A stretch of 64,000 nt of DNA from Candidatus Latescibacterota bacterium (GTDB lineage Bacteria; Latescibacterota; UBA2968; GCA-2709665): assembly GCA_965248435.1 (NCBI GenBank), contig OZ252100.1, forward strand, positions 5,504,001-5,568,000, in the 5' to 3' direction. Positions 2,721-57,771 of this stretch are shown here, one piece after another (the first letter of the stretch is position 1; every line of letters begins with the position of its first letter). The position numbers and the translations under genes were made by a program. The notes under the pieces were generated by a model, which ran no database searches, was not told the DNA's origin, and saw nothing but the letters and a program-made list of their open reading frames with translations.

Positions 2721-2735
2721 CGTCCAAGGTGTTCA

Positions 2736-39900: not shown

Positions 39901-40869
39901 ATGAGGCACATTTTGTTGCTGGGTGCCGGGTTTAGCAGGAACTGGGGTGGGCCGCTTGCCAGCGAGGTCTTCGAGCACCTCCTGGCGATTCCCGAAATCC
40001 AGCAGGATCCGTATTTGGGCCACTTGCTGTGGGAGACCAGCAAACCCAAGGGCGGTGGTTTCGAGCAGGCACTCGATAAAGCGAAGCAGGATGCTTCCAG
40101 CGATGTAGAGAAAGTACCGAGCCTGGAGGCTTTGCGGAACGGTGTGTCTGCCGTCTTCGATGTTATGAATCGGGGTTTCTTCGAACTTTTGGCCATTGAG
40201 CCAGAAGTTCGGACGTTCCTGTCGAAGTTCGATGCGATATACAGCCTCGATCAAGACGTCCTGTTGGAACATCACTACCTGAAGCATCTGGACTTAATAG
40301 ACCCAGACAGATGGACGGGTGCTCAGATCCCAGGGATGAGGCGGATACCCAGCAACGACACACACCCGTCCTGGGGAAAAGACACCTGGGTGCCCAATGA
40401 CGACCCGAGTGAGTTCGTTGTTTCAGATAGACTCCAACCGCTTTTTAAGCCCCATGGCTCTTCGAATTGGGTCGATGAAGAGGGTGGTGAAATGCTGATT
40501 GTTGGTGGCAACAAGGCAGGAGCGATTAAGGAACACCCAGTGTTGGATTGGTACTTCAGGAAGTTTGAAGAGGACATTACCTCGGAAGCGCGGCTCTTCG
40601 TTATCGGATACAGCTTTGGAGACAATCACATCAACGAGCAGATAATAAAGGGAGTCGGAGACGGGCTGAGGTTCTTCGTTTTGGATCCGCTTGGGAGCGA
40701 GGTGGCGAGACAGGCGAACCCATCCTACGGTGCGATGGTTATGGATAAAAGTGCCGAGGAAATGGCCTTCGAGGAAGGACTCATTGGCGCATCGAGGCGC
40801 AACCTCCGAGACATCTTCGGGGGTAACGATCCAATCTCGCACGCCAACATCATGAGTTTCTTCAAGTGA
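39901..40869 (+). CDS. SIR2-like domain protein
   Basis: LLLGAGFS, SLDQD (N->D at the TxNxD position), KPHGS, VIGYSFGDNHIN. Confidence 0.85.
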   Translation: MRHILLLGAGFSRNWGGPLASEVFEHLLAIPEIQQDPYLGHLLWETSKPKGGGFEQALDKAKQDASSDVEKVPSLEALRNGVSAVFDVMNRGFFELLAIEPEVRTFLSKFDAIYSLDQDVLLEHHYLKHLDLIDPDRWTGAQIPGMRRIPSNDTHPSWGKDTWVPNDDPSEFVVSDRLQPLFKPHGSSNWVDEEGGEMLIVGGNKAGAIKEHPVLDWYFRKFEEDITSEARLFVIGYSFGDNHINEQIIKGVGDGLRFFVLDPLGSEVARQANPSYGAMVMDKSAEEMAFEEGLIGASRRNLRDIFGGNDPISHANIMSFFK

Positions 40870-41021
40870 AGTGGCTAACCGGGAAAGGATGGCAGACAGG
40901 CCGTCCCGTTTTGTGACACGGCCGTCGCTCCTTAGATCGTCCCCATCCGTAACCTGTATCGATATGCACCTTCGTACGCCATGGGGGGCAGGGAGGAACG
41001 TTATGGCGAAAACGATTACAA

Positions 41022-41240
41022 CCGTCATTGAGCCACAGCCGACCGCGCTTCGGCTGTCTGGCGGGCACCTTTAGCCCCTCCTGACGCCAGATCCGCTCCA
41101 CCCGCTTGTGGTTCACCCGCCAGCCGTCACTCCTGAGCAGGGCCGTGATCCTGCGGTAGCCATACCGCCCGTATTCGCTGGCCAGAGAGACGATGCTCGT
41201 GGTCAGAAGCTCCTCGTCGTCTGGCTTGGAAGCCCAATCC
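41022..41240 (-). mobile_element. IS3-family transposase OrfB fragment
   Basis: YGRYGYRRITALLR..GWRVNHKRVERIWRQEGLKVP..QPKRGRLWLNDG; no DDE core. Confidence 0.88.
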
Positions 41241-41431
41241 GGCATAGGTGAAAGTGTCATCCCGTTTTTCTTCCTCGATCCAGTTCCAAAATGTTGCTGA
41301 GCCAGTAGCTTGGATAACTTCGCGGCGGCTTCTACTAAGACCGGCCATACCTGATAGCCGAGTCCGTAAGTGTTGGCCATTGGCTCACCTGTGTGATCTT
41401 CCGGCTCTGGAAGGCTCGCAGCAAGATTTGC

Positions 41432-41881
41432 TTAAGCTTCACCATCAGGTTCCTTTGGTTTACCCCCTGTTTTCCCGTAATTCTTCCTAATAGCGCGAAG
41501 CAATGAAAGTATCTCCCTCCGAAGCTCAGGCGGCGTCGCTTCAAATTCTTCCAACCACTCAGCCCACTCTTGGCGTCTATTGTAGTTGTAGGCAGGCGAA
41601 TCCTCCATGAAGACCGCCCCAGCGGAGAGCGAGTGCATTTGGACTCGTTGCTCCAGGTCGGCGTCGGATCGGGATGATCCCTCCCCAATAATTGCACCGA
41701 GATCAATGGGCAGGACCGCATGTATACGCAGGAGAGTCTTGAGCTCCAGGTTGTCCGAATTGACGTATCTCGAAACTCTCTTCTGAGTCACCCCTAACTG
41801 CTCCGCAAGCCAGACTTGGGTCTTTCCGGCCTCCTTTAGTGCCTTCCTGATCACCTCTCCGATTTTCATACGCTCCGCCAT
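41432..41881 (-). CDS. XRE-family (CI-like) repressor
   Basis: IRKALKEAGKTQVWLAEQLGVTQKRVSRY HTH. Confidence 0.85.
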   Translation of the reverse strand: MAERMKIGEVIRKALKEAGKTQVWLAEQLGVTQKRVSRYVNSDNLELKTLLRIHAVLPIDLGAIIGEGSSRSDADLEQRVQMHSLSAGAVFMEDSPAYNYNRRQEWAEWLEEFEATPPELRREILSLLRAIRKNYGKTGGKPKEPDGEA

Positions 41882-41935
41882 ATCCTGAAATTACGACAAT
41901 ATAGGTCTACTACCAAGCCCTTAAGTCATTTTTGC

Positions 41936-41964
41936 TTGCACCTATACGCTAAATTAGGTATATT
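41936..41964 (+). promoter_or_regulatory. divergent sigma70 promoter with an operator-like palindrome
   Basis: TTGCAC-N17-TATATT; imperfect inverted repeat TATACGCTAA/TTAGGTATA across the spacer. Confidence 0.55.
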
Positions 41965-42015
41965 TCACGCAGTATTATACCTTTTGCATACTACTTCTCT
42001 AATAAGGAGGATACC

Positions 42016-42186
42016 ATGAGAAACGGCATCAAAATACTCCGACCCTACAAGGCCATGCGGCGAAAATGCCTAGAATGCACCGCCGGGAGCGTTAGGGAGG
42101 TGCGCCTCTGCCACATGTCGGACTGCCCGCTCTGGCCCCATCGGATGGGAAAGAGGCCGACCCCTGAAATACTGGAAATCGCATAG
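42016..42186 (+). CDS. small Cys-rich phage-type protein (56 aa)
   Basis: TAAGGAGG RBS; MRNGIKILRPYKAMRRKCLECTAGSVREVRLCHMSDCPLWPHRMG...; four Cys; absent from the ORF track. Confidence 0.75.
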   Translation: MRNGIKILRPYKAMRRKCLECTAGSVREVRLCHMSDCPLWPHRMGKRPTPEILEIA

Positions 42187-42484
42187 AAAGGGAAGTTTCT
42201 CAGAGGCACCCCATCCAAGACAGACCGAGGTGGATTTTCGATGAAAATCGCGACGCTCGTGCAGGGTTTTGAGATTCCGTGGGAAGGGAAGGCTGAACCC
42301 GCAGGCACGCCGAGGGTAGGGTGTGGGAGTATGAGAATTACAGTCGTTCTTGTCTCAAATCGCGATGTCCAAAAAACCTCATCGAAATCCCCTGCGTAAC
42401 TACCTGAATTTACTCAGTCCATTTTTTTTGAATCTGATGTCCAACAAACTGATGAATTGTGGACACCCCGAAGGAGGAGGAGCC

Positions 42485-43066
42485 ATGGACAGAAAAAGAA
42501 AGCGGGCGGCAATATACGCTCGCGTATCCACCCGCGACCAAGATCCCGACCTTCAGCTCAGAGAACTGGAATCATATGCTGAAAACAGGGGATTCGAGGT
42601 CGTAGGCCCCTTTGCAGACCGTGAGAGCGGCACCAGCACAAATCGTGAGGAACTGAACCGGCTCTGGAAGCTGGTGAGAGCGCGGAAGGTGGATTTGGTG
42701 CTCGTCTGGAAGTTCGACCGATTCGCCAGATCCATGAAGCAGCTCGTCGATGCGCTCGAGGAGTTTCAGCACCTGGGGGTGGACTTCGTGAGCCTGACGG
42801 AGCAGATCGATACATCCTCTCCAGCGGGCAAGTTGGTGTTTCACGTTATGTCGGCTATCGCAGAGTTCGAAAGGGAGTTGATCTCAGAGAGGGTCCGAGC
42901 CGGTATAGCGAAGGCTAGGGCACAAGGGAAGGTTCTTGGTAGGCCGAGGATTGATGAGAAGGTGGCTGAAGAGATACGCAGGCTGCATAGGCAAGAGAAA
43001 CTCAGCCTGAGAGAGGTAGGAAAGAGGCTATCAGTGTCGAAAAGTACTGTTGAGAACTATGCTTAG
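42485..43066 (+). CDS. small serine recombinase (resolvase/invertase)
   Basis: IYARVST, DRESG, VWKFDRFARS, AEFERELISERVRAG, C-terminal HTH; GGAGGAGG RBS. Confidence 0.93.
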   Translation: MDRKRKRAAIYARVSTRDQDPDLQLRELESYAENRGFEVVGPFADRESGTSTNREELNRLWKLVRARKVDLVLVWKFDRFARSMKQLVDALEEFQHLGVDFVSLTEQIDTSSPAGKLVFHVMSAIAEFERELISERVRAGIAKARAQGKVLGRPRIDEKVAEEIRRLHRQEKLSLREVGKRLSVSKSTVENYA

Positions 43067-43380: not shown

Positions 43381-43564
43381 GCCTCCCTCCGAAAAGTTTC
43401 CAGAAGATAGTAGTATTGAGCCGCTAGTTGCCGCGTGTAGATTTGTGTGTAAGGTTCAACACCATCGGGATGTAGCGAAATCCATCCAAGTTCTGCTCCT
43501 CCCTTTCTTTCTCGAATCCTAGCCCTTCATATGCTTTAACTGCATTGGGCGGCGTTGGCTCGAT

Positions 43565-44278
43565 TCAATCCATGTGTGAGCGAACGATGTGAGTGAACTC
43601 CGACCAGTCGCGTACCTCCGCATCAGCGGCATCAGAAAGTGGTCCGCCTGAGGTAGACTGATCAGGGTTATACCAAATTGACCATAGCCCGGCGGATCTT
43701 GCTCCGGCGATGTCAAACTCTGGGCTATCTCCGCAAAACCAAGCTTGATGTGAACCTATGTGGAGCTTGGCAATCGCTACCTCAAAGAGGAGCGGATGGG
43801 GCTTCCGTATCCCGTAGTCCGCACTCGACAAGACAAATGAAAACGCATCCTTCAGACCGTGCCGTTGGAGTTCCCATTCCAGGACCGGTCCAGAAAAGGG
43901 ATTGTTGCTTACCACTCCCATCTTGATTTTCAGTAGCTTCAGCTCGTCCAGAGCGTAAACTATCCCAGGTTCGGGACTGTAGCGCACTGCTCCCTTCCAA
44001 AACTCCAATTCCATCTCCGAGAAAGAGAGGTTGAATCTGAGTCCGAGTTTATCGAATAGAATCCGCTGAAACGCCTGAACTGGAAATTCAACCATCCCGA
44101 GTAGATTCTCTACCCTAGAGTCCAATCGGTCTGCCTCTTCTTGGACTTCCTTTCCCGTCAAAACGTTAGGAGGGATTGCGAAATCAAGAAGCCTGGCGTT
44201 GCCAGCTTCGGGATCAAACCGGCGGTTACCGAGGATGGTGTCATGAAAGTCGAAAAGGATGGCGACCGGACGGTCCAT
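43565..44278 (-). CDS. HAD-family hydrolase (last cassette gene)
   Basis: FDFHDTI, VVSN, RKPHP, GDSPEFDIAGA. Confidence 0.88.
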   Translation of the reverse strand: MDRPVAILFDFHDTILGNRRFDPEAGNARLLDFAIPPNVLTGKEVQEEADRLDSRVENLLGMVEFPVQAFQRILFDKLGLRFNLSFSEMELEFWKGAVRYSPEPGIVYALDELKLLKIKMGVVSNNPFSGPVLEWELQRHGLKDAFSFVLSSADYGIRKPHPLLFEVAIAKLHIGSHQAWFCGDSPEFDIAGARSAGLWSIWYNPDQSTSGGPLSDAADAEVRDWSEFTHIVRSHMD

Positions 44279-44315
44279 CACTTTGGATTTCCAGAGAAGA
44301 TTGAGTGACAATGCC

Positions 44316-45238
44316 GCGTAACGTTCTCGGGCCTTTGCGAACCCCGAAGGGGTTGTGCGAAGGTGCGACTGCACCGAGCCGGTAGGGTCAAGGAATGGCG
44401 CGCCAACATTAGGGTTCGGTGGCTATTCCAATGCTTTCGCATTGGGCCTCAGTCCGGCTCCCATCGTCACGGTTCCATCCCCTGCCACTTCAAACCGTAC
44501 GTGAGGTTCTCCCTCATACGGCTTTCCGACAACCTATCCTCCTGAGGCATTCGAGGTTTCAGACCCTTCAGTCCTTCACAGCCTGCCACATCAGGCCAGA
44601 CCGAAAGTCCTTTCCCCCTTGACACTCAGGTATAGCCTGCGCTGGAGTTGTCGTGAGCTTGTGGTTCGGTGTGGTTGGACCCGATCCTGTCGGGCCATGC
44701 ACCATCACTTACCTCCCCGCTCGGCACGGTTAAAGCAGAGGTCCTTCCCTCCGGTGCAGTTATGTTGTCTACACCATCACAGGTAATATGACCTCCTCCG
44801 ACTTCTCACACGGCATCCCTCCAGACTTCACGATTCGTCGCTTATACCAGAGGTCACGGAAGCTGTGGGCCTCCGACCGTATGAGACCTCCCTTGTTCCA
44901 CCACCAACTGTACCCACATTCCGCTCCCCCTACGCCGGGGAGTCCTTCGAGGCTGCATCTCCAGAGTCTTCGCCTCTTCCATGGCCTTCGCGTCCGTGCG
45001 ATCGCTCGGCTCTCCCTGGTTCCCATTATCGGGGCTAACATATCGACGCTGCAGGATTCCCTTTATGGTACGGACTGCAGGGTTGCACCTCCTTCACAGA
45101 GGCATACTCCGCTTCAGCACACCCGGTCACCCGGAAGCACTGGGAGCTCGCTACTCGGCTCTCTGGCGATTACCGAGACCGGACTTTCACCGGCAAGTTG
45201 ATGATGACTTCAAGGCACACCGCACGGGCGTGTTATGC
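44316..45238 (-). repeat. attC site 1, interrupted by a group II intron
   Basis: GCGTAAC at 44316 and GTTATGC at 45232; internal hairpins match the other three attC sites. Confidence 0.75.
44382..45225 (-). mobile_element. ORF-less group II intron (non-IIC, class E-like) with internally deleted IEP
   Basis: 5' GTGCGGTGTGCC; domain V GAAAGCCGTATGAGGGAGAACCTCACGTACGGTTTG (AGC triad); long domain VI ending GACCCTAC; IEP relic SRQLQRRLYLSVK at about 44620-44660. Confidence 0.85.
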
Positions 45239-45262
45239 GAAGCTGGCGAGTTCGCGTGCGAC

Positions 45263-45880
45263 CTATTTAGGACGCCACTTCAGAGAGTTCTTCTTGAGAA
45301 GGTTCTTTGCATCCTCAAGCATCTGATTTACGCCTTCGACAGCATCTATTCTTGCCGAACTCCGTAGTGCTTCGCTTATAGGAGGACGCCAATCTTTGCC
45401 GCTAGTACCGAGGGCAACTGCTTTTTGGACGGCCAATTTGTAGTTTTGCCGTATGTGTTCGAAGTGATTCTTGCAGTGTATGCGGCAATCGCGCGGATGA
45501 AATCCAGCGAACTCTTTGCCTTCTGACGTCTCGATGATTCTGAGCAGTACATCGTCAGGAATGCTGGACATATCACTCCAGCTCTGATGTGGAAGACCCG
45601 GAAGGCTTGGTAGTCTGCCAGTACTCGTATCGTCAGCGGCTTCCGCAGCCTTCTTAAGGGTTCTGAGACCGACCTGCACCTCCTCCTGTATTGACTCCAG
45701 AATTGCTACTCCTAGTTTGCTATAGGTTCGTCGTCGTCGCCACTCTCCGAGCCGGTCAACCGCAATGTAAGTCACTAGTGCGACGAGTATGGGGAGAAGC
45801 ATCTTCTCCAGAAAGAACACCAGTCCTACCGGCAGCAGGTTTTGTGTGGCTCTAAGAGTATCTAGCGTTGCAGTGTCCAT
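45263..45880 (-). CDS. hypothetical membrane-anchored cassette protein
   Basis: ORF fills the space between attC1 and attC2; N-terminal TM segment. Confidence 0.7.
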   Translation of the reverse strand: MDTATLDTLRATQNLLPVGLVFFLEKMLLPILVALVTYIAVDRLGEWRRRRTYSKLGVAILESIQEEVQVGLRTLKKAAEAADDTSTGRLPSLPGLPHQSWSDMSSIPDDVLLRIIETSEGKEFAGFHPRDCRIHCKNHFEHIRQNYKLAVQKAVALGTSGKDWRPPISEALRSSARIDAVEGVNQMLEDAKNLLKKNSLKWRPK

Positions 45881-45920
45881 TCGGATCACCTGAATCCATG
45901 TAGAGTCTTGCGCCAGTTTC

Positions 45921-46014
45921 GCATAACGTTCCCGCCACTTGCGAACCTGCCTATGGCGGGTTGCCGTCAGGCCAAGGCGCGAATGCGCCGGAGCCGCAGC
46001 CCGTCGTGTTATAG
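45921..46014 (-). repeat. attC site 2
   Basis: GCATAAC...GTTATAG, 94 bp, imperfect palindrome with two internal hairpins. Confidence 0.8.
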
Positions 46015-46067
46015 GCCGTGCCAACCCTAGTCGTATCTGAGAACTCGGCGTGGAGGATCAGTAAGTT

Positions 46068-47132
46068 CTAGAAGAAATATCTTAGAACTGATGTAGCTGA
46101 TTGATTGCACCAAAATTGCGCTATCAAATAGTCTTTGCTTCTCGCATCGAGATTATACGGTTGGTATCTGAGTATAGAACTCAGAGCAAAGGAGAACAGG
46201 TAGTCCGAAAGCAGTGGATGCCAGCGGATTGTAGATCCAGCCAACTCGACAGGGAAGGTGAACAACCAGTAGTGATCAGCGACACTGTCATAGACCGTTG
46301 GAATGGCGTAATCCGACAACTCTCTTGCTGCATCGCTCCTTACCTGTTTCATCGCCGTGGCTCGTGTCGATTGGGTGTAGGCAATGGCTTTGCCTCGGAC
46401 GATGGAATTCCGTCCGAGAAGTATAGCATTGACACGAAATGAATCCAGCCAGTCCTGCCTATCGAAATCCGTAACGCGCCTGCGGTCAACTATCGATAAA
46501 AAGGATCCCAAAGGAGACGATAGCATGCGTTGAGCGTTAGTCTTGTCCGCAAGCATCTCGAACCAGCATTCCTGATTGTTAAGTCGGAGAAGTGACTGAG
46601 TGCGAAAGACGTCCGGTGTAATCTTGTGCAGCTTGTGCAGTTCATCAGAAATATCGTTGCAATGACCAAGCACCTCCTTTAGGCTGATTCTAATACTACT
46701 CCTGTGTGGCCATTTTGTAGATGTTAGAGCCTGGTACATATGAGAGAACACATTCTCGCCTCTTTTTGTCGACGGCGGATGGATTTCCAGCTCATAGTCA
46801 GGAATGGTCACGGCACTCTGGACCGGAGCCCTCAATCCATGTAGTATGGACGCCGTCACGATCTTCTTGAAAGAAAAGACCTTCTTCAGCACCAGGAACG
46901 CTTTGGATAGGTTGAGGAAACTGTAGTAATAGAGTAGCCCGCCAGTTCGCCAGTTCGCTTTTCGCGCATCAAGGAAATACGTGCAGGCTTGATCAATGAG
47001 CGGACTTATGTTGCGCGGTTTCCTTGTATGGCGCAACATTACCAATTGCTGGCAGACCTGCTCAACGATGTCCTGAGATGTTATAAGGTTCTCAACAGGC
47101 TTGGATAGGGGAAAGTAGAGCTGAAACGCCAT
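46068..47132 (-). CDS. YaaC-like protein (cassette)
   Basis: LLYYYSFLNLSKA, HGL and LSSILRYQP motifs. Confidence 0.7.
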   Translation of the reverse strand: MAFQLYFPLSKPVENLITSQDIVEQVCQQLVMLRHTRKPRNISPLIDQACTYFLDARKANWRTGGLLYYYSFLNLSKAFLVLKKVFSFKKIVTASILHGLRAPVQSAVTIPDYELEIHPPSTKRGENVFSHMYQALTSTKWPHRSSIRISLKEVLGHCNDISDELHKLHKITPDVFRTQSLLRLNNQECWFEMLADKTNAQRMLSSPLGSFLSIVDRRRVTDFDRQDWLDSFRVNAILLGRNSIVRGKAIAYTQSTRATAMKQVRSDAARELSDYAIPTVYDSVADHYWLFTFPVELAGSTIRWHPLLSDYLFSFALSSILRYQPYNLDARSKDYLIAQFWCNQSATSVLRYFF

Positions 47133-47174
47133 AGCTTTGCTTCTTATTTAAGAAGAGATCCTGGTTGGCATGGC

Positions 47175-47337
47175 CTATAACGTTCTCGGGCTTTTGCGAA
47201 CCTTGCCGACCTGCGAAGCAGGCTGGCAAGCGGGTTGCCCTGATGTTCTCCCCCTTAACGCAAACCCGCGTGACAGAGGCAAGGTTGCCAGAGGCCGGAG
47301 GGAGCGAAGCGACTGGAGCGAAAAGCCCGTGTTAGCA
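47175..47337 (-). repeat. attC site 3
   Basis: CTATAAC-GTTCT-CGGGCTTTTGCG...CGAAAAGCCCGT-GTTAGCA, 163 bp. Confidence 0.8.
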
Positions 47338-47411
47338 GAAGTCGCATCTGCCCGCCTCTCTCTGGCCAAAAGATCAGGGCGAGAATAAAACGCGCTCGAT
47401 TGCCGTGGTTT

Positions 47412-48044
47412 TTACTTCTGTTTTTGCTGTATGAAATGCCGACTGATCTCCGAAGCAGCGTGCTCTGCAAGCTCCTCTGGTGGTCGTAGGCCGTCCACCA
47501 CCAAGTCCGCATTTGCACCTACCTGTTGCTGCCGAGTGTAAAAATAGTGAAGTCCCACCTCCAAATATCTACGTAGACTGGCAATAGCATCCGCGCCGTT
47601 CGACGCATCTCTCAATACCATTCGCGCAAGGGCGACATCAAGGGGAATGTCGATATGCACAACGTAGTCAATCAAAGGGCGAACTTCATCTCGGTCGCGT
47701 CCCCAAGGCTCCTCTAAGAGAATGAACGGTGCCGGCTTGACACTTCTGCATCCGTGATCTGGTGGTTGGACCGACTGGCCCTCTTTCAGTACTCGAAGGT
47801 CTGCGGCTAGTTTTGGGACAGTGAGACGCTGGTTTGGATCCCCACCATCCTCAAGCCACCGGAGGAAACTGTTCTCCACGGGTTCGTCGTCGTCATAGGC
47901 CGAGAACCATTTTTGAACCGAATTGTAGGTGTCTAAGTATAGAACCGTGGAATCTGTCATTAGCTCATGAATTTTCCCAACAAGAGTCGTCTTTCCTGCA
48001 CCAGCAGGTCCGCTTACCACAATCACATGACTTTTACTATCCAT
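47412..48044 (-). CDS. P-loop kinase (uridine kinase/AAA-like; cassette)
   Basis: VSGPAGAGKTT, YLD, PLDVALAR. Confidence 0.8.
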   Translation of the reverse strand: MDSKSHVIVVSGPAGAGKTTLVGKIHELMTDSTVLYLDTYNSVQKWFSAYDDDEPVENSFLRWLEDGGDPNQRLTVPKLAADLRVLKEGQSVQPPDHGCRSVKPAPFILLEEPWGRDRDEVRPLIDYVVHIDIPLDVALARMVLRDASNGADAIASLRRYLEVGLHYFYTRQQQVGANADLVVDGLRPPEELAEHAASEISRHFIQQKQK

Positions 48045-48128
48045 TGTTAAAATTTTCCAAAAAGGTGATTGCTGGTTTTCTTGGTTTTGCGCGTTGTGGT
48101 GTCTTTCTCGGTAGGGTGGGGCGATTTC

Positions 48129-48214
48129 TGCTAACGTTCTCGGCACCCACGAACCCGCGGAGCGGGTTGGGCGAAGGGGCGGAAGCCCCGGAGCCGTGGG
48201 TGCTCGTGTTAGCC
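48129..48214 (-). repeat. attC site 4
   Basis: TGCTAAC-GTTCT-CGGCACCCACG...CGTGGGTGCTCGT-GTTAGCC, 86 bp. Confidence 0.82.
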
Positions 48215-48384
48215 GTCTGCGCAGATTCGGGTTCGCTCCTATCCAGGGCCTAAGGTTTGGTCAAGTTCCATGGCATATCTCAGCTCACGAAGGGAAGTGT
48301 CCTTTGTGTTGTGGAAACTGTCGTAAATACAGATCCAGTAGAATTTGGACATTGTCTCGTCTTCCGATTGTCAGGTTTGGGGGA

Positions 48385-48957
48385 TCAAATTCCGATTAGG
48401 CTGCGAGTGAGTCCGGAATGACCCCAATGCACTGCAAAGCATAGTATCAGAAACCAGAATGCGAACGTGCCTGGATACAGCAAGTCAAAGGCCATGGAAT
48501 GCGTGATATGTTTGGAGATGCGGGGTGGAAGCGGGTTTTTCATCCACGCCACTTTGGGGCAATCAGGAAGAGGTTCTGGTGGAACTTCTGTCTCTATCTT
48601 GTTGGGCTTAACTTTGCGCTGTCTGCTAAAGAAACCATTGTACCAATCTGGTCCCGTAAGTTTCCAGTAGCGATGTTCAATGTCTATTCCTCGCATTGCC
48701 AAGTTGGTGTACAACGCCCGGGTTCTTAGCTCCAGAATCCACGCACATAGACTTAGTAGACAGCCAAGCCCCGCGACTGGAATGCGTGAGGACCAGTTGT
48801 CCTGTAGGATGGCAGGTACCAGGAATCCAGTGGCTGCCAGGAAAAATCCAGCGATAACGAAACGAGTTGAGACTTGAGATGTGTGGTACGCAACTACTGC
48901 GTTGTACTCCGTTCTTGCGTTTTCCTGAATATCGGTGGGCGATGGTACAACTATCAT
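48385..48957 (-). CDS. hypothetical membrane protein (three TM segments)
   Basis: GGGAGG RBS before MIVVPS; hydrophobic segments. Confidence 0.7.
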   Translation of the reverse strand: MIVVPSPTDIQENARTEYNAVVAYHTSQVSTRFVIAGFFLAATGFLVPAILQDNWSSRIPVAGLGCLLSLCAWILELRTRALYTNLAMRGIDIEHRYWKLTGPDWYNGFFSRQRKVKPNKIETEVPPEPLPDCPKVAWMKNPLPPRISKHITHSMAFDLLYPGTFAFWFLILCFAVHWGHSGLTRSLIGI

Positions 48958-49037
48958 GTTAACCTCCCGCTGATGCTGGGGCGAATGCCTTGGCACGAAT
49001 CTGACTCATTTTGATTTTACTGGTGGGTTTCCAGGAC

Positions 49038-49463
49038 TTACCCGCGAAACACTCTTTCATTATGCCAAGCAAGGAAATCTTCTCCAGGCTGTTCCGCGGC
49101 AGTCTCAGGTTTCCTCTGACGAGAGCGAATGCCCTGCGCGCGCCAAATCGTCATCATGATTCTACTGACGATATTCGGAGAGAAGAGAGATGCAAACACA
49201 ATGGGAATGATTCCCAAGAGATTACCCGCAGCGACAGTGTAGCCACCGAGAATTAGGAGCGTCAGCACTAAGAGTTTTCTAAAATAACCTAGAGGTAGCC
49301 ATGGCCTTGAAGCAAAACCTGCTAGTTGGGCCTTTATTAGCCTAATTTTCTCTTGCTGCTCTTGTGTGAGATGTGGTTTCGCCTCTAGCTTACGCACTAT
49401 CTCCAAGAGCTCTATTGCTTGAGTTGCTTCATCTTCAGATTTTGACAAACCATTCTCCTTCAA
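49038..49463 (-). CDS. hypothetical membrane protein
   Basis: 141-aa ORF with two adjacent TM segments. Confidence 0.55.
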   Translation of the reverse strand: MKENGLSKSEDEATQAIELLEIVRKLEAKPHLTQEQQEKIRLIKAQLAGFASRPWLPLGYFRKLLVLTLLILGGYTVAAGNLLGIIPIVFASLFSPNIVSRIMMTIWRAQGIRSRQRKPETAAEQPGEDFLAWHNERVFRG

Positions 49464-49539
49464 CGCAAACCGCAGACGTCAGAATCTTCCCTTTTGCGTG
49501 AATAGCATCTTGTGGACGTATCTTCACAATAAACCTCTT

Positions 49540-50060
49540 TTAGAATCCGTGCATCATGGACCAGGGTAAAACCCGCACAATAGCGGTCTCAAATGAGGGC
49601 GATGGGATGGAGGTCTCCCCTTGCCCAGTAACATCTATTCTATGAGGAGCTGTATAGGTTGGCAGAAATGTCGCCTTTCTTTTGCGAAGGAGGCAATATG
49701 TGTCATGGGGCGATTGATGAAGATCCTCCGATAGCTGGCTCAAAGTCTTACCAAAGAGGACACGTGCGTCTTCTTTTTGTAGAAGATTTTCGAGTTCATC
49801 ATGTCGAAGATCAAATTCGGAGACGACGTCATTAAGCGATCTTCCCGCTAGGTCGCTTTCAATTTGAGTAGGTTTGGTTTTCATAACTCGCAAATCTGAA
49901 TCCACATGTTTTTCATCTTGAATAACGATGTCCTGCACTGGAAGGTCACTGGACTGGTCTGTTGAAAATTCTTGCTCCTTACCAGGCTTTCCAAATACCA
50001 GCCAGAGGATGACGGATAGAGCGAAGATAATGATTAATACCCATCTCAGATGATCTTCAT
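49540..50060 (-). pseudogene. membrane-anchored hypothetical protein with a 5' frameshift
   Basis: ATG AAG ATC ATC TGA is out of frame with LRWVLIIIFALSVILWLVFGK..., which continues into ORF 49540-49938. Confidence 0.5.
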
Positions 50061-50215
50061 ACTGATCCCTGAGCCAAACTACCTATCGGAGTCACTAATA
50101 GGACGAAGATTACCCATTTGGCAAGGCCCTTCAAGATCCGCATACACCATTACTCCATTCTGTAGGCGAACCAAAAGCGAAAACCCAGAAACCATCCTTG
50201 CAAGCGCAGCCACCT

Positions 50216-51532
50216 TTACGATGCGATCATATCCCTGAGTGCTTGGATAACGCCTTGGATCAGCGTGGCAACTTGGTCCCGCTCTGGATACGTGGAATCT
50301 AATTCCTGTGCTAAGGAATACGGGATGAATGCATATACTTCTACGCCTAGTGAAACGTCTACGTAGGTCCTGTTGGAATCCCCAAAGTAGAGATTCCAAT
50401 CTGCCCGTTCTTTCCAGTCATCCCCTACAAGACCCACGAGTGTTTCAGATAGTCTGGACCAATCATCTTTGACCCATCTGCCGGCAAGAGTTTCAAAGCC
50501 GTCAATTGTGTGTGTAGAGTAGGCTTCCTGACTTCTCTCTAGAGGCATCTTTATCCAAGTCACGCCTCTGTTGAAATGACCAAATTTGACATACGGCTCA
50601 ATTGTAAGCCTAAATCTGCGGGTACCTACTTCTAGAGAGCTTCTAACCAACCACGGCAAGCTCTCACCCGAAGTAAATAGATGGCTTCCCTGTGCCTTTG
50701 TGTCGCCGGGCCACACTCCTACGCTGATTGAAGGGGTGCCATCTGGATCAGGCATTGGATAAAGATTGATCTCACTTGCCCAACCGAAATCCACCGCGAT
50801 AGCAGCCCTATCGCCGGTGTCAACCAATGGGCTTTGAAAGGCATTGACCTTGGCAATGTACAAGCGTTTATGTATCTGGTGGAAGTTCGGATCCTTATCA
50901 TCCGTAGCAAACGCTAGATAGGAGAAATTTCGAACAGGGAACCACGTTGGGAAATTGGCTGAGAGGAACTCAATATAGTCCTGGACGAAAATGTTTGGGG
51001 AACCTAAGCTCATGTGGTAGCTGTGAATCTTTTGAAACAGTTCAACCACATCGGCCCAAGAGAGAGAACGTGTATAACTATTGAACTGATGAGGTTCATA
51101 CTTTTCTGTCGCCTTCAGAATCTGATTCTGTAACTGAGCGAAGCAGTCTATCTGTTGCAGTTTCACCTCGATTATCACAACTATGTTTCTGACGGTTATT
51201 CGGATGTCAATTATCGGCTTTTCCGCACCCTCGGCAAAGACGTCGCCCGTCAAGTCCAAACGTTCTGGCGTTAAAGTGACTCCGACAATGTGTTCGAATC
51301 CCTCCAGACCGCTCGCGGGAACCTGCAAGTCTATGTCTATCTTGTCATCGCTTGTTAGATTCTCTACTGACTGTTCATACACTTCAACAGGAACTACCAT
51401 TCGCATAAACTCAATCAGCATTGCAGGATCGTTGCGAAAAACTAAGGCCAGTCCCCGCGAGAGATTGTTCTCCAAGGTTGGATCACTTCCGCCGTCGGAG
51501 AAAAATCGGAATAAATTTAGGTGTGCGTTCAT
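50216..51532 (-). CDS. PD-(D/E)XK nuclease-like protein
   Basis: LENNLSR, IIDI...IIEVK, SWADV pattern; start taken at MNAHLNLF. Confidence 0.6.
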   Translation of the reverse strand: MNAHLNLFRFFSDGGSDPTLENNLSRGLALVFRNDPAMLIEFMRMVVPVEVYEQSVENLTSDDKIDIDLQVPASGLEGFEHIVGVTLTPERLDLTGDVFAEGAEKPIIDIRITVRNIVVIIEVKLQQIDCFAQLQNQILKATEKYEPHQFNSYTRSLSWADVVELFQKIHSYHMSLGSPNIFVQDYIEFLSANFPTWFPVRNFSYLAFATDDKDPNFHQIHKRLYIAKVNAFQSPLVDTGDRAAIAVDFGWASEINLYPMPDPDGTPSISVGVWPGDTKAQGSHLFTSGESLPWLVRSSLEVGTRRFRLTIEPYVKFGHFNRGVTWIKMPLERSQEAYSTHTIDGFETLAGRWVKDDWSRLSETLVGLVGDDWKERADWNLYFGDSNRTYVDVSLGVEVYAFIPYSLAQELDSTYPERDQVATLIQGVIQALRDMIAS

Positions 51533-51677
51533 ACCGTACCCTATGTGGATCAAATTGTGGGTGCTTTGGCACTCTTTTACTTTTCCAACCCAGGGCTTCC
51601 TTTGGCGTCTCACTCGGCGACTCCGACCTGGCCCTGAAGTCTCGTGCCCTAGACGTGCATACCCCTCCGTCTTTGTG

Positions 51678-52205
51678 TCAGCCCTGTTCCTGGGAACGCC
51701 GCCATAATTCAAGCAACATCCGGTTTTCCGTCAGACCCAATCGAGAATCTCGGACTTGCAAATACCTTACCGTTCCCTTGCCAAATCTACCCCCCTGCCT
51801 GTTCAAAGGCGGCTCAGTGGCTGCGATTAGAATTGCTTCCATGTGGTCAAGAGCGGCTGAGACCTTAGCTCCCGCCCTAAGTTTCTCGGTAGACAGTTGG
51901 CCGCTGTTTAGCACCCGTCTTAGTCCGAACCAGGAAAAGTGATCCCATCGGTCAGCGAGGACATCCTTGCGGTGTCGCTTGAGGCGATTAAGTAGACGTT
52001 GGTCCTTTGACCCGGTTTGGCCGACATAGATCACGTTGTGCCCTGAGTACAAGACATATATGCCTATCTGTCGTCTGAAGTCGACCGGTTCAGAAGAGCG
52101 CGCTCTGGCAGGAACCCCGAAAATGGCTCCAGGTTGATTACCTCGTCCCCAGAATACGTCCTCTTCCTTCCAGAACAAGCCATATGACTGGATAATGCCT
52201 GGCAT
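51678..52205 (-). CDS. GIY-YIG nuclease family protein
   Basis: GIYVLY...IYVGQT...RL..H...EAILI...PPLN. Confidence 0.85.
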   Translation of the reverse strand: MPGIIQSYGLFWKEEDVFWGRGNQPGAIFGVPARARSSEPVDFRRQIGIYVLYSGHNVIYVGQTGSKDQRLLNRLKRHRKDVLADRWDHFSWFGLRRVLNSGQLSTEKLRAGAKVSAALDHMEAILIAATEPPLNRQGGRFGKGTVRYLQVRDSRLGLTENRMLLELWRRSQEQG

Positions 52206-52261
52206 CTGATCTCGTATCGTATCCTATCATGAGGTGACCTCTTGGCTAATCAGCCCGTCTT

Positions 52262-52933
52262 CTAGAAGTCCTCCAATCTAAGGGCCTCAGTCTTCAATTT
52301 ACCAAGACTATAATCAACAGATTCAGTGACTTTGATTGCCTCATCTCCCAGTTCTAGATAAGAACGCGATCTGGGACCAATCACCTGGTAGGCTTCTCCA
52401 CCGAGATCCTCGAATTGGGAGGAAATGAGCATCCCAACTCTGGGAGCGTACCGGGCTTCTAGGGTTCCGATTCGCGCCGAGCTATCTTCGTTCCTAAAGA
52501 AAAGCGAGCGGGCAGAGAGAATACACGCGGGGTTGTCGTTGCTATTGTTGTCAAGCAACTTGACGAACCCTGTGGAGAATTGCACGTTACTATCTGATTG
52601 TGGCTCGCCAACTCCCATGAGTATGTGAGACGTACCGTCGCTTCCAATTATCTCGATGTTGTTTGCTCTGATTCTGTCTGCGTAAACGTTCCCCACTAAG
52701 AACTCGCCGAACTTGCTATCGAGATTACTAACTCGGCCTGCTACAGTAGCATCAGATTGGAAAGTGAGAATCGCGATCATTCCGGTGATCATTAGAATTA
52801 AGACTCCGCCCACGGCGGAAAGGAAAACTTGGAAGATCCGCAACCTGGCTTCCAAGGAGTTCAATCTCTCCTTCAGCGTTGCTTCAACGGATAAGACCTT
52901 TGCCTCCAGGACAGCAGTTTCCATCAATTGCAT
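52262..52933 (-). CDS. hypothetical protein (coiled coil, TM segment, beta-rich domain)
   Basis: GAGG RBS; 223-aa ORF. Confidence 0.65.
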   Translation of the reverse strand: MQLMETAVLEAKVLSVEATLKERLNSLEARLRIFQVFLSAVGGVLILMITGMIAILTFQSDATVAGRVSNLDSKFGEFLVGNVYADRIRANNIEIIGSDGTSHILMGVGEPQSDSNVQFSTGFVKLLDNNSNDNPACILSARSLFFRNEDSSARIGTLEARYAPRVGMLISSQFEDLGGEAYQVIGPRSRSYLELGDEAIKVTESVDYSLGKLKTEALRLEDF

Positions 52934-52972
52934 GAGAAACCTCGCTAGTATTAGATGGTTATGAGACCGGCT

Positions 52973-53971: not shown

Positions 53972-54314
53972 TTGACCACTCCCTAATTGTCTAGTCTTGC
54001 TTCAGGAACTCCCGTCACCTCCGCCAGAGTTGGAAGAGAACTCGCCAAGAGAACCACAAGTGTTTGACAGCGGATGTTCATCTTTACCTCCGCAATAGAA
54101 TGATTTTCACTTGAAACATGAAAAAAACCTTACCATCTCCACCCTTGGGGAGCCAATTCAACATTTTTGATCATATGGTTTCGACAATGACATTATTGCC
54201 TCTGGAGGGTCTTAACTTTCAGAGTCAGAGACGATAGGGGGGCGTGTTCACGGGTTCACTTTGCTGGGCTTGTCAAAAGCGTCATTTTTGGCTGATACAA
54301 GACGGGTCTATTGG

Positions 54315-54536
54315 TTATTCCTCCTTTTGTCCCGCATCTCCATCTTCTTGAAGCGGCTGTTCGTCAGGATCGATTGGCAGCCAGGGCACTTTCAATAATG
54401 CCTCAATAATGTTATCCTTGGGTGGATCTTCTGACTCATCTTGTCTGCTCGAATCCTCATCATGTTTGCCTTTCTCTTCGTCCTCTGGATCTAAATTACC
54501 TCTGCTATCACTTTCCATTCCTAGTCTCCTAATCAT
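54315..54536 (-). CDS. small acidic hypothetical protein
   Basis: D/E-rich 73-aa ORF downstream of rmuC. Confidence 0.35.
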   Translation of the reverse strand: MIRRLGMESDSRGNLDPEDEEKGKHDEDSSRQDESEDPPKDNIIEALLKVPWLPIDPDEQPLQEDGDAGQKEE

Positions 54537-54563
54537 TAGGGCGATTCACTGCGATTTCCATTC

Positions 54564-55562: not shown

Positions 55563-55679
55563 TTCCTTGACTCCGGTCCAATCCAGTCCTACTTGGCGCC
55601 CCCTCACGAAGACGCGGTCACACTAGGGAACGAACTCAATTGAGAGCGCAAAAATATTCCGAGATGGCATTCCGAGAAC

Positions 55680-57767: not shown

Positions 57768-57771
57768 TACA

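What the first reader, a model, noticed from the sequence alone, without database searches (positions are those of the whole stretch)
44316..45238. ORF-less, non-IIC group II intron inside an attC site, on the same strand as the cassettes
Seen: an intron of about 840 nt (GTGCG start, full-length domain V with AGC triad, long domain VI ending CCCTAC) splits attC1 just after its R'' box; only the relic SRQLQRRLYLSVK of the IEP survives. Established: known attC-targeting introns are group IIC, have a short CGC-triad domain V and insert in the bottom strand, opposite to the cassette genes. Inference: a different intron lineage (class E-like) uses attC as a target in sense orientation, so it would be co-transcribed with the array and could be spliced or mobilised in trans, perhaps controlling cassette excision.
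Basis: partly seen in the sequence, partly recalled or inferred. Interest (0 to 1): 0.8.

Follow-up and report, generated by a model that had tools for sequence, protein, structure and literature searches.

The report
ORF-less group II intron in attC
A mobile self-splicing-type intron that has lost its own enzyme gene sits inside an integron-type recombination site, and its RNA guide sequences are built to pair with that site, which shows a second, different way for introns to colonise gene-cassette arrays.

Summary
An 839-nt ORF-less group II intron lies on the minus strand (45220-44382), the same strand as the flanking cassette ORFs, inside an attC-like site (45238-44316).

The true 5' splice site is GTGTG at 45220. 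Intact paralogous attC sites in the same genome and EBS1-IBS1 covariation both show this.

The intron is not IIC. It has a 34-nt domain V with an AGC triad and a 5-nt loop (an IIE/IIF hallmark), a roughly 106-nt domain VI supported by covariation, and an Rfam D1D4-4 domain I. Class F looks more likely than E but is unresolved.

EBS1 (CGCACGG) pairs with the attC L'' box and EBS2 (UGUUA) with the R'' core TAACA. Insertion is exactly at the L''/central-region boundary. Siblings in another Latescibacterota genome and in metagenomes sit at the same attC position with matching EBS1 changes and share the same ORF deletion, so this is one old non-autonomous lineage.

The window's genome has no group II RT, and 14 matching attC targets are empty, so this copy is stranded. 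Splicing and any effect on cassette excision are untested. Prior art from 2021 reports IIB introns beside attC, so this is a new variant of a known kind.

The parts
44316..45238 (-). attC-like site 'a', split by the intron. R'' GCATAAC at 45238-45232 and R' GTTACGC at 44322-44316.
   Evidence: Read. It belongs to the same repeat family as three uninterrupted sites in the window. The family's 3'-arm motif has 30 copies in the genome against 0 in the reversed-pattern control.
45231..45235 (-). IBS2 candidate TAACA, which is the core of the R'' box.
   Evidence: It is complementary to UGUUA at intron positions 181-185. The same EBS2 motif occurs in L009, L143, L148, L149, L155, L144 and L147. All of these whose 5' exon is available carry TAAC there.
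45221..45227 (-). IBS1 CCGTGCG, which is the end of the 5' exon and the attC L'' box.
   Evidence: It forms 7 Watson-Crick pairs with EBS1. The empty paralogous sites contain these bases.
44382..45220 (-). ORF-less group II intron, 839 nt, GUGUG...CCCUAC.
45063..45196 (-). Domain I 5' part, matched by Rfam RF02003 (group-II-D1D4-4).
   Evidence: 82.7 bits against a gathering score of 49.
45036..45040 (-). EBS2 candidate UGUUA.
   Evidence: It lies in an unpaired stretch in the single-sequence and consensus folds.
44994..45000 (-). EBS1 CGCACGG, in a terminal loop of domain I.
   Evidence: It is homologous to the loop that covaries with the exon in G097 and G098 (CGTAAAC/GTTTACG and CGTGAAT/GTTCACG), and in L009, L143, L144 and L151.
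44618..44656 (-). Relic of the IEP N-terminus (SRQLQRRLYLSVK) in the domain IV remnant.
   Evidence: It matches the L147 IEP N-terminus. WIN aligns to L147 up to about nt 587 and resumes at nt 1813, a deletion of about 1.2 kb.
44492..44524 (-). Domain V: AGC triad, 2-nt bulge and 5-nt loop GAGAA.
   Evidence: Six of its 13 pairs show changes on both sides across 8 family members.
44384..44489 (-). Domain VI, a long irregular hairpin with a bulged A at 44388, seven nt from the 3' end.
   Evidence: RNAalifold and pair counts: 93% of cells paired against 30-46% in slid controls.
44323..44381 (-). 3' exon: the central part and L' arm of attC 'a'. Its first base C is the IBS3 candidate.
   Evidence: It continues the empty-site sequence of paralogous attC sites. 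21 of the 23 non-redundant family copies have C at +1.
43565..44278 (-). Downstream cassette ORF, a HAD-family hydrolase.
   Evidence: PF13419 at 1.4e-19.
45263..45900 (-). Upstream cassette ORF of unknown function, with stop codon TAA at 45265-45263. The ORF listing extends it to 46024, but that part overlaps attC 'b', so the true start was not fixed.
45921..46014 (-). attC-like site 'b', uninterrupted.
47175..47337 (-). attC-like site 'c', uninterrupted.
48129..48214 (-). attC-like site 'd', uninterrupted.

Best explanation
This is a non-autonomous copy of an En-less, IIB-like (class E/F-type, probably F) group II intron lineage that homes into integron-type attC sites on the cassette-sense (top) strand. 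The copy has lost its RT ORF by deletion.

The intron RNA recognises the 5' arm of the attC by base pairing. EBS2 (UGUUA) pairs with the R'' core TAACA, EBS1 (CGCACGG) pairs with the L'' box CCGTGCG, and the first 3'-exon base is C. It therefore reverse-splices exactly between L'' and the central region of the site. In effect the two guide sequences copy the attC's own L' and R' arm.

The RT needed for insertion came from an autonomous relative of the L147 type (1991 nt, with an RT-maturase ORF of about 434 aa). The ORF-less form then spread as a parasite of such relatives among attC sites of different genomes.

In this genome no RT is left, so the copy is stranded. It can no longer move. It would be transcribed with the cassettes if the array is transcribed. 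It keeps an intact-looking ribozyme and may still self-splice, which would restore the attC sequence in RNA only.

At the DNA level the R and L boxes stay intact, but the variable central part of the attC is lengthened by 839 bp. This should lower, though perhaps not abolish, recombination at this cassette junction.

Shown: anatomy, boundaries, pairing, lineage, absence of an RT, and empty targets. Inferred: retrohoming in trans, splicing, co-transcription, and the effect on recombination.
For: Boundaries. Twelve of 14 uninterrupted paralogous sites in the same genome read ...TAACACGNCCGTGCG followed by C. Eight of them continue GCGGCT.. as the window's 3' exon does, and L162 matches it over more than 25 nt. 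The 3' end GACCCTAC is shared by all 25 hits (23 non-redundant copies), and their flanks diverge right after it.

Guide pairing. EBS1 sits in the same loop (intron positions 219-221) in WIN (CGCACGG/CCGTGCG), L009 (GCACGG/CCGTGC), L143, L148 and L149 (TGAGTG/CACTCA), L155 (same EBS1, exon CATTCA with one G-U), L144 (TTTAGCC/GGCTAAA) and L151 (CACTAA/TTAGTG). Ten of 12 distinct intron-exon combinations reach 6 or more contiguous pairs, and L150 and L154 do not. In the other sublineage, G097 has CGTAAAC/GTTTACG and G098 has CGTGAAT/GTTCACG.

attC context of the EBS2-bearing clade. WIN, L009, L143/L148, L155 and both L144 sites show R'' and/or R' boxes.

Lineage. WIN, L009 and L143 share the same deletion endpoints against L147 but are only 76-81% identical to each other.

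Structure kept. There are compensatory changes between WIN and L009. In D1-D3, 54 of 100 predicted pairs show double changes. In D5-D6, 18 pairs show double changes against 1-6 in slid controls, and 0 of 500 shuffles reach the observed covariation score.

No RT in G000 (97.5% complete, 2 contigs). TIGR04416 gave 0 hits. The G098 IEP gave 0 hits at E<=0.01. tblastn with the L147 IEP gave a best E of 2.6. There is only one intron copy and one D5.

The intron-containing allele is tiled with 0 differences by contigs of run X1, which is probably the source sample.
Against: No direct evidence of transcription or splicing. None of the 4 laid runs has a contig joining the exons, and these are contigs, which cannot show rare forms.

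The attC identity rests on architecture and genomic distribution. IntegronFinder's covariance model could not be run. No integron integrase above the NCBIfam cut-off exists in this genome (best 195.5 bits against 265). The attC sites next to the bona fide IntI of G098 belong to another sequence family.

attC 'a' has an L' (GCAAAGGCC) that pairs poorly with its L''.

The EBS2 pairing is only 4-5 bp. The G097/G098 sublineage lacks a UGUUA motif, and EBS2 was dispensable for splicing in the IIE/IIF introns tested by Nagy et al. (PMC3753933, passages).

Half of the 12 ORF-less G097 copies are not in attC sites, so attC homing is a preference of that sublineage, not a strict rule.

By GC skew, the top strand here is the leading-strand template. 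That is not the strand En-less introns usually prefer (n=1, and the segment may have moved since insertion).
Confidence: 0.75

Rival explanations
1. Ordinary retrohoming intron whose homing site merely happens to lie in a repeated sequence. On this view attC as such is not recognised, and the association is a by-product of the target being multi-copy.
For: Recognition is by plain EBS/IBS pairing, as in any IIB-like intron. Six of the 12 ORF-less G097 copies sit in non-attC DNA that carries a similar short motif. A further sublineage (G058/G106/G107) has unrelated targets.
Against: Two sublineages with different EBS1 sequences hit the same structural position (the L''/centre boundary) in attC sites with different sequences. 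EBS2 of the WIN clade matches the one nearly invariant attC element, TAAC. Clade members occur in attC sites of unrelated contigs, twice in L144.
Confidence: 0.15
2. Retained (domesticated) element. On this view the host keeps the ORF-less intron because it locks two cassettes together, or tunes expression of the downstream HAD cassette through splicing.
For: The ribozyme helices look intact although the genome has no RT. The insertion spares the R and L boxes and only lengthens the central region.
Against: Only 1 of 15 matching sites in the genome is occupied. The intron lies in an intergenic attC, so nothing depends on its splicing. The structure could simply not have decayed yet. No expression data exist.
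Confidence: 0.08
3. A group IIC-attC intron, the known attC-targeting kind.
For: It is in an attC. Among solved structures, the relatives' IEP is closest to IIC RTs (GsI-IIC at 3e-48 against T.el4h at 1.9e-37), and it lacks an En domain.
Against: It is in sense orientation on the top strand, whereas IIC-attC introns are on the bottom strand, antisense (PMC3001079, passages). Its domain V is 34 nt with AGC and a 5-nt loop. EBS1 is 6-7 bp and an EBS2 candidate is present, whereas IIC introns lack EBS2 and part of EBS1 (PMC3753933, Introduction). The ribozyme is about 650-750 nt without the ORF, against about 400 nt for IIC.
Confidence: 0.01

Closest known systems
Group IIC-attC introns (S.ma.I2 and relatives)
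   Same: They are group II introns with En-less IEPs that use integron attC sites as insertion targets and sit between a cassette ORF and the rest of its attC.
   Different: IIC-attC introns insert into the bottom strand, antisense to the cassettes, and recognise the folded stem-loop with a short EBS1 and no EBS2 (PMC3001079 and PMC7923331 passages; the role of the stem-loop is partly recalled). The intron here is sense, on the top strand, IIB-like of the E/F type, with EBS1 against L'' and EBS2 against R''. It is inserted at the L''/centre boundary and is ORF-less.
UHB.I2 (IIB1/CL1) and H.ha.F1/F2 (class E IEP) of Sonbol & Siam 2021
   Same: They are non-IIC introns associated with integron arrays or CALINs. 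UHB.I2 is in the same orientation as the cassettes, and their IEPs lack an En domain.
   Different: By the text I read, UHB.I2 lies immediately after an attC, with poorly conserved exons, and H.ha.F1/F2 are 5'-truncated fragments downstream of attC-like structures. No EBS-to-attC-box pairing, no insertion inside the attC, no ORF-less lineage and no repeated independent insertions were described. Their supplementary figures, which show the exact positions, could not be opened.
Class F (and E) bacterial group II introns, e.g. Pe.th.I2, Ge.ur.I1, Ni.ha.I1/I2
   Same: They share the 5-nt DV loop, IIB-like architecture, a small ribozyme, an En-less RT-maturase, and (for F) a long structured D6. A Nitrobacter hamburgensis X14 plasmid intron shares RF02003, the 5-nt loop, the ...GACUCUAC end and a 47% identical IEP.
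   Different: attC targeting has not been described for these classes, within the limits of my searches. Whether the plasmid copy is Ni.ha.I1 or I2 was not verified, and no tree with reference IEPs was made.
ORF-less bacterial group II introns mobilised in trans (Thermosynechococcus) and the orphan C.te.I1
   Same: These are deletion derivatives that depend on a relative's IEP. C.te.I1 is cited as the sole known ORF-less bacterial intron in a genome without any IEP (PMC4424553, passages).
   Different: Here one ORF-less lineage is spread over different genomes and metagenomes at 76-81% identity, always in or at attC-type targets, and the window's copy is a second case of an orphan without an IEP in its genome.

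Membership tests
Group II intron ribozyme | Domain V with a catalytic triad and bulge, and domain VI with a bulged A near the 3' end | tested here: met
   RF00029 at 43.2 bits against a gathering score of 40. AGC triad, bulged A at 44388, and covariation in 8 members.
Group II intron ribozyme | GUGYG 5' end, AY 3' end, and a domain I whose EBS1 pairs with the 5' exon | tested here: met
   GUGUG...UAC. RF02003 at 82.7 bits. 7-bp EBS1-IBS1 pairing, with covariation across copies.
Group II intron ribozyme | Splicing (ligated exons, lariat or linear intron) | tested here: inconclusive
   No contig joins the exons in 4 runs. Contigs cannot show rare forms, and the RNA runs hold only relatives.
Group IIC-attC introns | Insertion in the attC bottom strand, antisense to cassette genes | tested here: not met
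   The intron and both flanking ORFs are on the minus strand. The definition comes from PMC3001079 passages.
Group IIC-attC introns | IIC ribozyme: very small, shortened EBS1, no EBS2 | tested here: not met
   6-7 bp EBS1, a UGUUA EBS2 candidate, and a 34-nt DV with a 5-nt loop. The definition comes from the Introduction of PMC3753933.
Class E/F (IIE/IIF) introns | 5-nt loop in domain V instead of a GNRA tetraloop | tested here: met
   GAGAA in WIN, GAGAU in G097/G098 and GCAAA in G106/G058. The feature is named in the Introduction of PMC3753933.
Class E/F (IIE/IIF) introns | Alpha-prime motif at the tip of a stem-loop in DId3, and an extra bulge loop in DId3 | not tested
   I did not assign alpha/alpha-prime.
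Class E/F (IIE/IIF) introns | IEP with RT and X domains but no D/En domain | tested here: met
   In relatives: RVT_1 plus GIIM only, 441 aa. The L147 IEP ORF is about 434 aa. The window copy has no IEP.
Class F rather than E | Long, highly structured D6 (described as a tendency of IIF), and an IEP clustering with class F exemplars | tested here: inconclusive
   D6 is about 106 nt with covariation. The IEP is 47% identical to a Nitrobacter hamburgensis plasmid IEP whose intron shares the RNA hallmarks. No reference IEP set was available for a tree, and close clade members L146 and L151 have a D6 of ordinary length.
Integron attC site | Inverted R''(..YAAC) and R'(GTTR..) cores flanking an imperfect palindrome with L''/L' boxes | tested here: met
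   GCATAAC and GTTACGC match in 6 of 7 positions. The folded bottom strand of the rejoined site pairs the R boxes. L''/L' pairing is weak in site 'a' but good in sites 'c' and 'd'.
Integron attC site | One site after each ORF in co-oriented arrays | tested here: met
   Four sites follow four minus-strand ORFs in the window. The genome holds 30 copies of the 3'-arm motif in about 7 clusters, against 0 in the control.
Integron attC site | Recognised by the IntegronFinder attC covariance model, or recombined by an IntI | not testable with these tools
   The model is not available. No IntI above cut-off exists in this genome, though bona fide IntI genes exist in G097 and G098.
Non-autonomous (ORF-less) group II intron | Internal deletion of the IEP ORF relative to a full-length relative | tested here: met
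   WIN 1-594 and 666-839 align to L147 1-587 and 1813-1991.
Non-autonomous (ORF-less) group II intron | A related IEP in the same genome, able to act in trans | tested here: not met
   No hits. It is met for the other sublineage in G097, which has a full-length copy in L055.

The most novel reading that the evidence does not exclude
A class F-like group II intron lineage has made integron attC sites its dedicated homing niche by RNA mimicry of the attC's own 3' arm, with EBS2 resembling R' and EBS1 resembling L'. It inserts at the one place, the base of the variable central structure, that leaves the integrase recognition boxes intact.

Its ORF-less derivative would then travel with cassettes and persist without any RT as a self-splicing insert. 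That insert would damp excision at its junction, and through 0.8-kb identical copies it would give arrays portable homology for rearrangement, as the recombinant-looking exon combinations of L143, L149 and L155 hint.
Probability: 0.25. Interest if true: 0.8.

Novelty: new variant of a known kind. Interest (0 to 1): 0.62.

Why it matters
Reviews list attC targeting as a speciality of one IIC sublineage that reads the folded bottom strand. Here a different ribozyme class reaches the same niche by ordinary exon-binding-site pairing on the other strand, so attC colonisation has evolved at least twice by different means.

The work also adds a widely spread ORF-less bacterial lineage, and a second orphan without an RT in its genome. 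Both are kinds of element that surveys based on RT genes miss and that reviews call rare.

Because the insertion spares the R and L boxes, the locus gives a natural test of how the length of the attC central region limits cassette recombination.

The guide-to-box pairing gives clear, cheap predictions for mobility and recombination assays.

Tried and rejected
Intron start at GTGCG (45225). Rejected. With that start no EBS1 could be found at a homologous place in WIN and L009, and the rejoined attC lacked an L'' box. The empty sites settle the start at 45220.

3' end at ...CCCTAAT (44408), as the Rfam alignment places it. Rejected. Homology among copies runs to ...GACCCTAC.

A crude scan for attC palindromes in the window recovered only site 'd', because it was too strict.

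Tying the window's attC family to a bona fide IntI failed. The loose 3'-arm motif is absent within 18 kb of the IntI genes of G097 and G098, and the G098 IntI-adjacent sites are another family.

Mapping the Rfam D1D4 models to intron classes through papers gave no mapping.

The genome-contig scan with the IEP alignment found 552 relatives, and the best 80 loci were kept. Nearly all are MAGs of Planctomycetota, Acidobacteriota and others. None is a named class exemplar.

RNA evidence. The RNA runs hold only relatives' sequence, and no joint across the intron was seen. X15 record 16 bridges the 5' exon-intron junction of a close relative, but an RNA library can contain DNA. The small-share runs say nothing about habitat.

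Replication-strand logic. By cumulative GC skew the origin is near 3.0 Mb and the terminus near 0.22 Mb. The top strand at 5.55 Mb is then the leading-strand template, so there is no support for the lagging-template preference (n=1).

No sigma-70-like promoter was found, and terminator-like sites are not enriched in 43400-48400 (0 against 2.8 expected, and 4 against 5.0 expected). This neither shows nor excludes co-transcription.

Novelty searches: (full-text library only). I found no description of E/F-type or ORF-less introns inside attC sites.

What I saw of each paper:
- PMC7923331: abstract and sections 5, 7 and 10 (part 1).
- PMC4424553, PMC3552965, PMC3001079, PMC8876359, PMC12350094 and bioRxiv 2024.12.10.627823: passages only.
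- PMC3753933: passages and the Introduction.
- PMC12584367: abstract and outline only.
- Simon et al. 2008 (PMC2525955): not held, so what I say of it comes from others' citations.
- Supplements were closed. Those of PMC7923331 (attC positions of UHB.I2 and H.ha.F1/F2) and of PMC3552965 (intron lists) may bear on the novelty and class claims.

The statements on attC architecture (variable terminal structure, extrahelical bases, and the effect of central length on folding) and on the lagging-strand preference of En-less introns are recalled, not from a call.
Full report
WHAT IS THERE. Rfam finds two group II intron pieces on the minus strand: RF02003 (group-II-D1D4-4) at 45196-45063 with 82.7 bits, and RF00029 (domains V/VI) at 44526-44408 with 43.2 bits. 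The neighbouring ORFs are on the minus strand too. They are a HAD-family hydrolase at 44278-43565 (PF13419, 1.4e-19) and an ORF ending at TAA 45265-45263. Four intergenic sites on that strand share an attC-like build (...YTAAC ACG ... GGTTCG ... CCGAGAAC GTTA...): 48214-48129, 47337-47175, 46014-45921, and the interrupted one at 45238-44316.

BOUNDARIES. The 3' end ...GACCCTAC (44382) is shared by all 25 3'-end hits in related genomes (23 non-redundant copies), and their flanks diverge directly after it. The Rfam alignment's end at 44408 is an inner D6 hairpin.

The 5' end is not the GTGCG at 45225. With that start I could find no EBS1 at a homologous place, and the rejoined attC lacked an L'' box. 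The loop homologous to the EBS1 of better-sampled relatives reads CGCACGG in the window intron. This pairs perfectly with CCGTGCG if the intron begins at the next GUGYG, GTGTG at 45220. In L009 the loop GCACGG pairs with the exon CCGTGC.

The decisive control is in the genome itself. The pattern TAACANNNCCGTGC has 14 other exact matches, all on the strand of attC arrays. In 12 of the 14 the next bases are G then C, and 8 continue GCGGCT..., exactly as the window's 5' exon to 45221 plus its 3' exon from 44381 do. L162 matches for more than 25 further bases. The intron is therefore 45220-44382, 839 nt, GUGUG...CCCUAC.

WHAT KIND OF INTRON. Domain V is 34 nt with the AGC triad, a 2-nt bulge and a 5-nt loop (GAGAA). 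Domain VI is a hairpin of about 106 nt with a bulged A seven nucleotides from the end (44388). Across 8 family members the D5-D6 structure has 93% of cells paired against 30-46% when the 3' partners are slid. It has 18 pairs with changes on both sides against 1-6, and no shuffle of 500 reaches the observed covariation score. In D1-D3, 54 of 100 predicted pairs show compensatory changes in a 10-sequence alignment, three of whose rows diverge after about column 170. WIN and its 80.6% identical sibling L009 (79% by BLAST) differ by compensatory changes such as CUCGG/CCGAG against UGGGG/CCCCA.

[quoted passage not shown] Full-length relatives encode RT-maturases without an En domain: the G098 IEP is 441 aa with RVT_1 plus GIIM only, and the L147 IEP ORF is about 434 aa. 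Among solved structures the G098 IEP is nearest to IIC RTs (3e-48), then T.el4h (1.9e-37) and LtrA (2.5e-21). That comparison does not discriminate among En-less classes.

On plasmids, the G098 IEP is 47% identical over its full length to an RT on Nitrobacter hamburgensis X14 plasmid 1. The intron around that RT also hits RF02003 (102 bits), has a 5-nt DV loop and ends ...GACUCUAC. Ni.ha.I1 and Ni.ha.I2 of that species are class F/g3 in Toro & Martinez-Abarca (PMC3552965, passages), but I could not verify that this copy is one of them. I therefore file the family as E/F-type, with F more likely. It is not IIC.

THE ORF WAS DELETED. L147, a metagenome contig, holds a 1991-nt full-length member of the same clade. 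WIN aligns to it over 28-594 (L147 29-587), 666-748 (1813-1894) and the last 20 nt. About 1.2 kb, nearly the whole ORF, is missing. L009 and L143 have the same endpoints and an alignable filler, yet WIN, L009 and L143 are only 76-81% identical to each other. This is one ORF-less lineage that kept spreading after the deletion.

TARGET RECOGNITION. In the window the 5' exon reads GCATAAC-A-CGC-CCGTGCG. EBS1 (44994-45000 on the plus strand, intron positions 221-227) pairs with the last 7 bases. UGUUA (intron positions 181-185), in an unpaired stretch about 35 nt upstream of EBS1, is complementary to TAACA, the core of the R'' box. The first 3'-exon base is C, as in 21 of the 23 non-redundant family copies.

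A metagenome scan with a D1 pattern of the window type gave 13 contigs. Counting WIN and L009 there are 12 distinct intron-exon combinations. Ten of them have 6 or more contiguous pairs between the exon end and a site in the EBS1 region, while L150 has 5 bp with two G-U and L154 has none. In six combinations the site is the same loop at positions 219-221: WIN, L009, L143 (shared with L148 and L149), L155, L144 and L151. A 6-bp match somewhere in the 65-nt search space is not rare by chance, but a match in the same loop is.

The motif AUGUUA(A/G)CCC marks a clade (WIN, L009, L143, L148, L149, L155, L144, L147). Every member whose 5' exon is available carries TAAC 2-4 nt upstream of IBS1.

The 3' exons are attC remainders ending in R' boxes in WIN, L009, L143/L148, L155 and the first L144 intron. 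L144 carries a second intron in the next attC. L149 has an attC-type 5' exon but an unrelated 3' exon.

A second sublineage also sits at the same boundary. It comprises G098, with three identical 1987-nt full-length copies, and G097, with one full-length copy and twelve 749-nt ORF-less copies that are 99-100% identical. Its target is TAACA-N4-GTTTACG|C, where GTTTACG is the L'' box of those attC sites, and EBS1 covaries with it (G097 CGTAAAC, G098 CGTGAAT against GTTCACG). Of the twelve ORF-less copies, four have clear attC 3' arms, two have partial ones and six have none. All twelve have the short 5' motif. This sublineage has no UGUUA. A third sublineage (G058, G106, G107) has other targets.

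IS THE SITE AN attC? The architecture fits: inverted ..TAAC/GTTA.. cores, L boxes, lengths of 86-163 nt, and one site after each co-oriented ORF. The 3'-arm motif occurs 30 times in the genome against 0 for the reversed control, in about seven clusters. The formal test, IntegronFinder's model, could not be run.

This genome has no integron integrase above the NCBIfam cut-off. Its best candidates are six copies of a 283-aa XerA/IntI-like recombinase (NF040815 at 219 bits against 220; TIGR02249 at 195.5 against 265; model positions 177-236 are unmatched). Four of the six lie 2.3-5.3 kb upstream of attC clusters on the same strand. True IntI genes exist in G097 (366.7 bits) and G098 (351.7 bits), but the attC sites beside the G098 gene belong to another sequence family. 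The window's four sites are thus a CALIN-like cluster. The record title of L057, which is the same contig as G097:C3, names a Candidatus Latescibacterota MAG, and G097 is in the window genome's class.

STATE OF THIS COPY. The genome (5.67 Mb, 2 contigs, 97.5% complete) has one intron copy and one D5. It has no group II RT by TIGR04416 (0 hits, with the control genomes positive), by the G098 IEP (0 hits), or by tblastn with the L147 IEP (best E 2.6). Fourteen matching targets are unoccupied. The copy is stranded.

Contigs of run X1, probably the source sample, tile the intron-bearing allele without a difference. No contig in X1 or in three RNA libraries joins the exons. An RNA-library contig of another study covers 45043-45248 with 8 differences, so close relatives sit at the same kind of junction elsewhere. 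Transcription and splicing here are not shown. No promoter-like site, and no excess of terminator-like sites, lies in 43400-48400.

HOW IT MOST LIKELY WORKS. Shown: a IIB-like E/F-type ribozyme whose two guide sequences are complementary to the R''-L'' arm of attC sites, inserted on the sense strand at the L''/centre boundary, as a deletion derivative of RT-bearing relatives, and now without any RT.

Inferred: it arrived by reverse splicing and reverse transcription supplied in trans, in this genome's ancestor or in a donor of the cassette. If the array is transcribed it is part of the transcript and may self-splice, as tested IIE/IIF introns do in vitro (PMC3753933).

At the DNA level it leaves the R and L boxes intact but lengthens the central region by 839 bp. 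From what is known of attC folding (recalled), this should reduce recombination at this junction. The insertion strand is the leading-strand template by GC skew, which does not fit the usual preference of En-less introns. That is a single case, and the segment may have moved.

COMPARISON AND NOVELTY. Group IIC-attC introns insert into the bottom strand, antisense (PMC3001079). A 2015 review lists attC insertion as a property of class C only, and calls ORF-less bacterial introns rare, with one known orphan (PMC4424553, passages).

Sonbol & Siam 2021 (PMC7923331) already linked IIB introns to integrons. They reported a CL1 intron in sense orientation immediately after an attC, and 5'-truncated introns with class E IEPs in a CALIN. 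So 'non-IIC, sense' is not new in itself.

I did not find the following in print:
- insertion inside the attC at a fixed structural position;
- guide sequences matched to the R'' and L'' boxes, with covariation;
- two sublineages doing this;
- a dispersed ORF-less lineage;
- an orphan copy beside 14 empty targets.

I rate this a new variant of a known kind, with interest 0.62.

Noticed in passing
G000:C1, six places outside the window (e.g. L002 1180-2031 minus; 1448658-1449452, 2071970-2072764, 3850047-3850841, 4843434-4844228, 4651479-4652273, 5171594-5172388): There are six near-identical copies of a 283-aa XerA/IntI-like tyrosine recombinase (NF040815 at 219 bits against a cut-off of 220; TIGR02249 at 195.5 against 265; the IntI-specific region is unmatched). 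Four of them lie 2.3-5.3 kb upstream of attC clusters, co-oriented with them. This may be an integron-like platform with an atypical integrase.
   Followed up: partly
G000:C1, attC clusters near 0.98, 1.44, 2.06, 3.86, 4.95, 5.33 and 5.55 Mb: The genome holds 30 copies of the attC 3'-arm motif. With the origin near 3.0 Mb and the terminus near 0.22 Mb, the large arrays (0.98-2.07 Mb minus, 3.85-3.87 Mb plus) are co-directional with replication. The small clusters at 4.95, 5.33 and 5.55 Mb, including the window, are head-on.
   Followed up: partly
L143/L148, L149, L155 (metagenome contigs): Introns that are 99.9-100% identical carry mixed exon pairs. L143/L148 have 5' exon A with 3' exon X, L155 has 5' exon B with X, and L149 has A with an unrelated non-attC Y. 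This looks like recombination between intron copies, or repeated homing.
   Followed up: partly
L055 about 526-3259 (G097:C3, about 1186425-1189158): A 749-nt ORF-less intron abuts a 1985-nt full-length intron with the same 5' end (...GACCCTAC directly followed by GTGCGCCGTGC...). This is a tandem pair at one homing site.
   Followed up: partly
window 44410-44475 (inner part of domain VI): Summed contig depth here is very high: 10759 for one 171-nt contig in RNA library X15 against about 5-10 for the rest of the intron, and 2720 in X1 against 33-58. It is probably many family members collapsed onto the conserved D5-D6. A stable RNA fragment is not excluded.
   Followed up: no
window 44323-44345 and 45221-45229: The L' arm of attC 'a' (GCAAAGGCC) fits the L'' of sites like 'c', not its own L'' (CCCGTGCG). 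Paralogous sites with the same L'' have L' CGCACGG, which is identical to the intron's EBS1. The occupied site may be chimeric.
   Followed up: partly
L010 and L021 (G037:C2): There are two copies of a fragment matching positions 6-46 and 237-542 of the query (numbered from the GTGCG at 45225) at 85% identity. The D1 part between them is missing, so this is a degenerate derivative.
   Followed up: no
L144 1131-1226 and 2099 onward: A metagenome contig carries two introns of this family in successive attC sites, in the same orientation. The first has a shorter D6.
   Followed up: partly
window 39901-43066 and 46068-60111: Cassettes encode a YaaC-like protein and a P-loop kinase. A serine resolvase (42350-43066, plus strand) and a SIR2-like protein lie past the HAD end of the cluster. 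On the opposite side, at 52973-60111, are an endo/exonuclease, RmuC, a UvrD-type helicase and a DNA methylase, a defence-island flavour.
   Followed up: no
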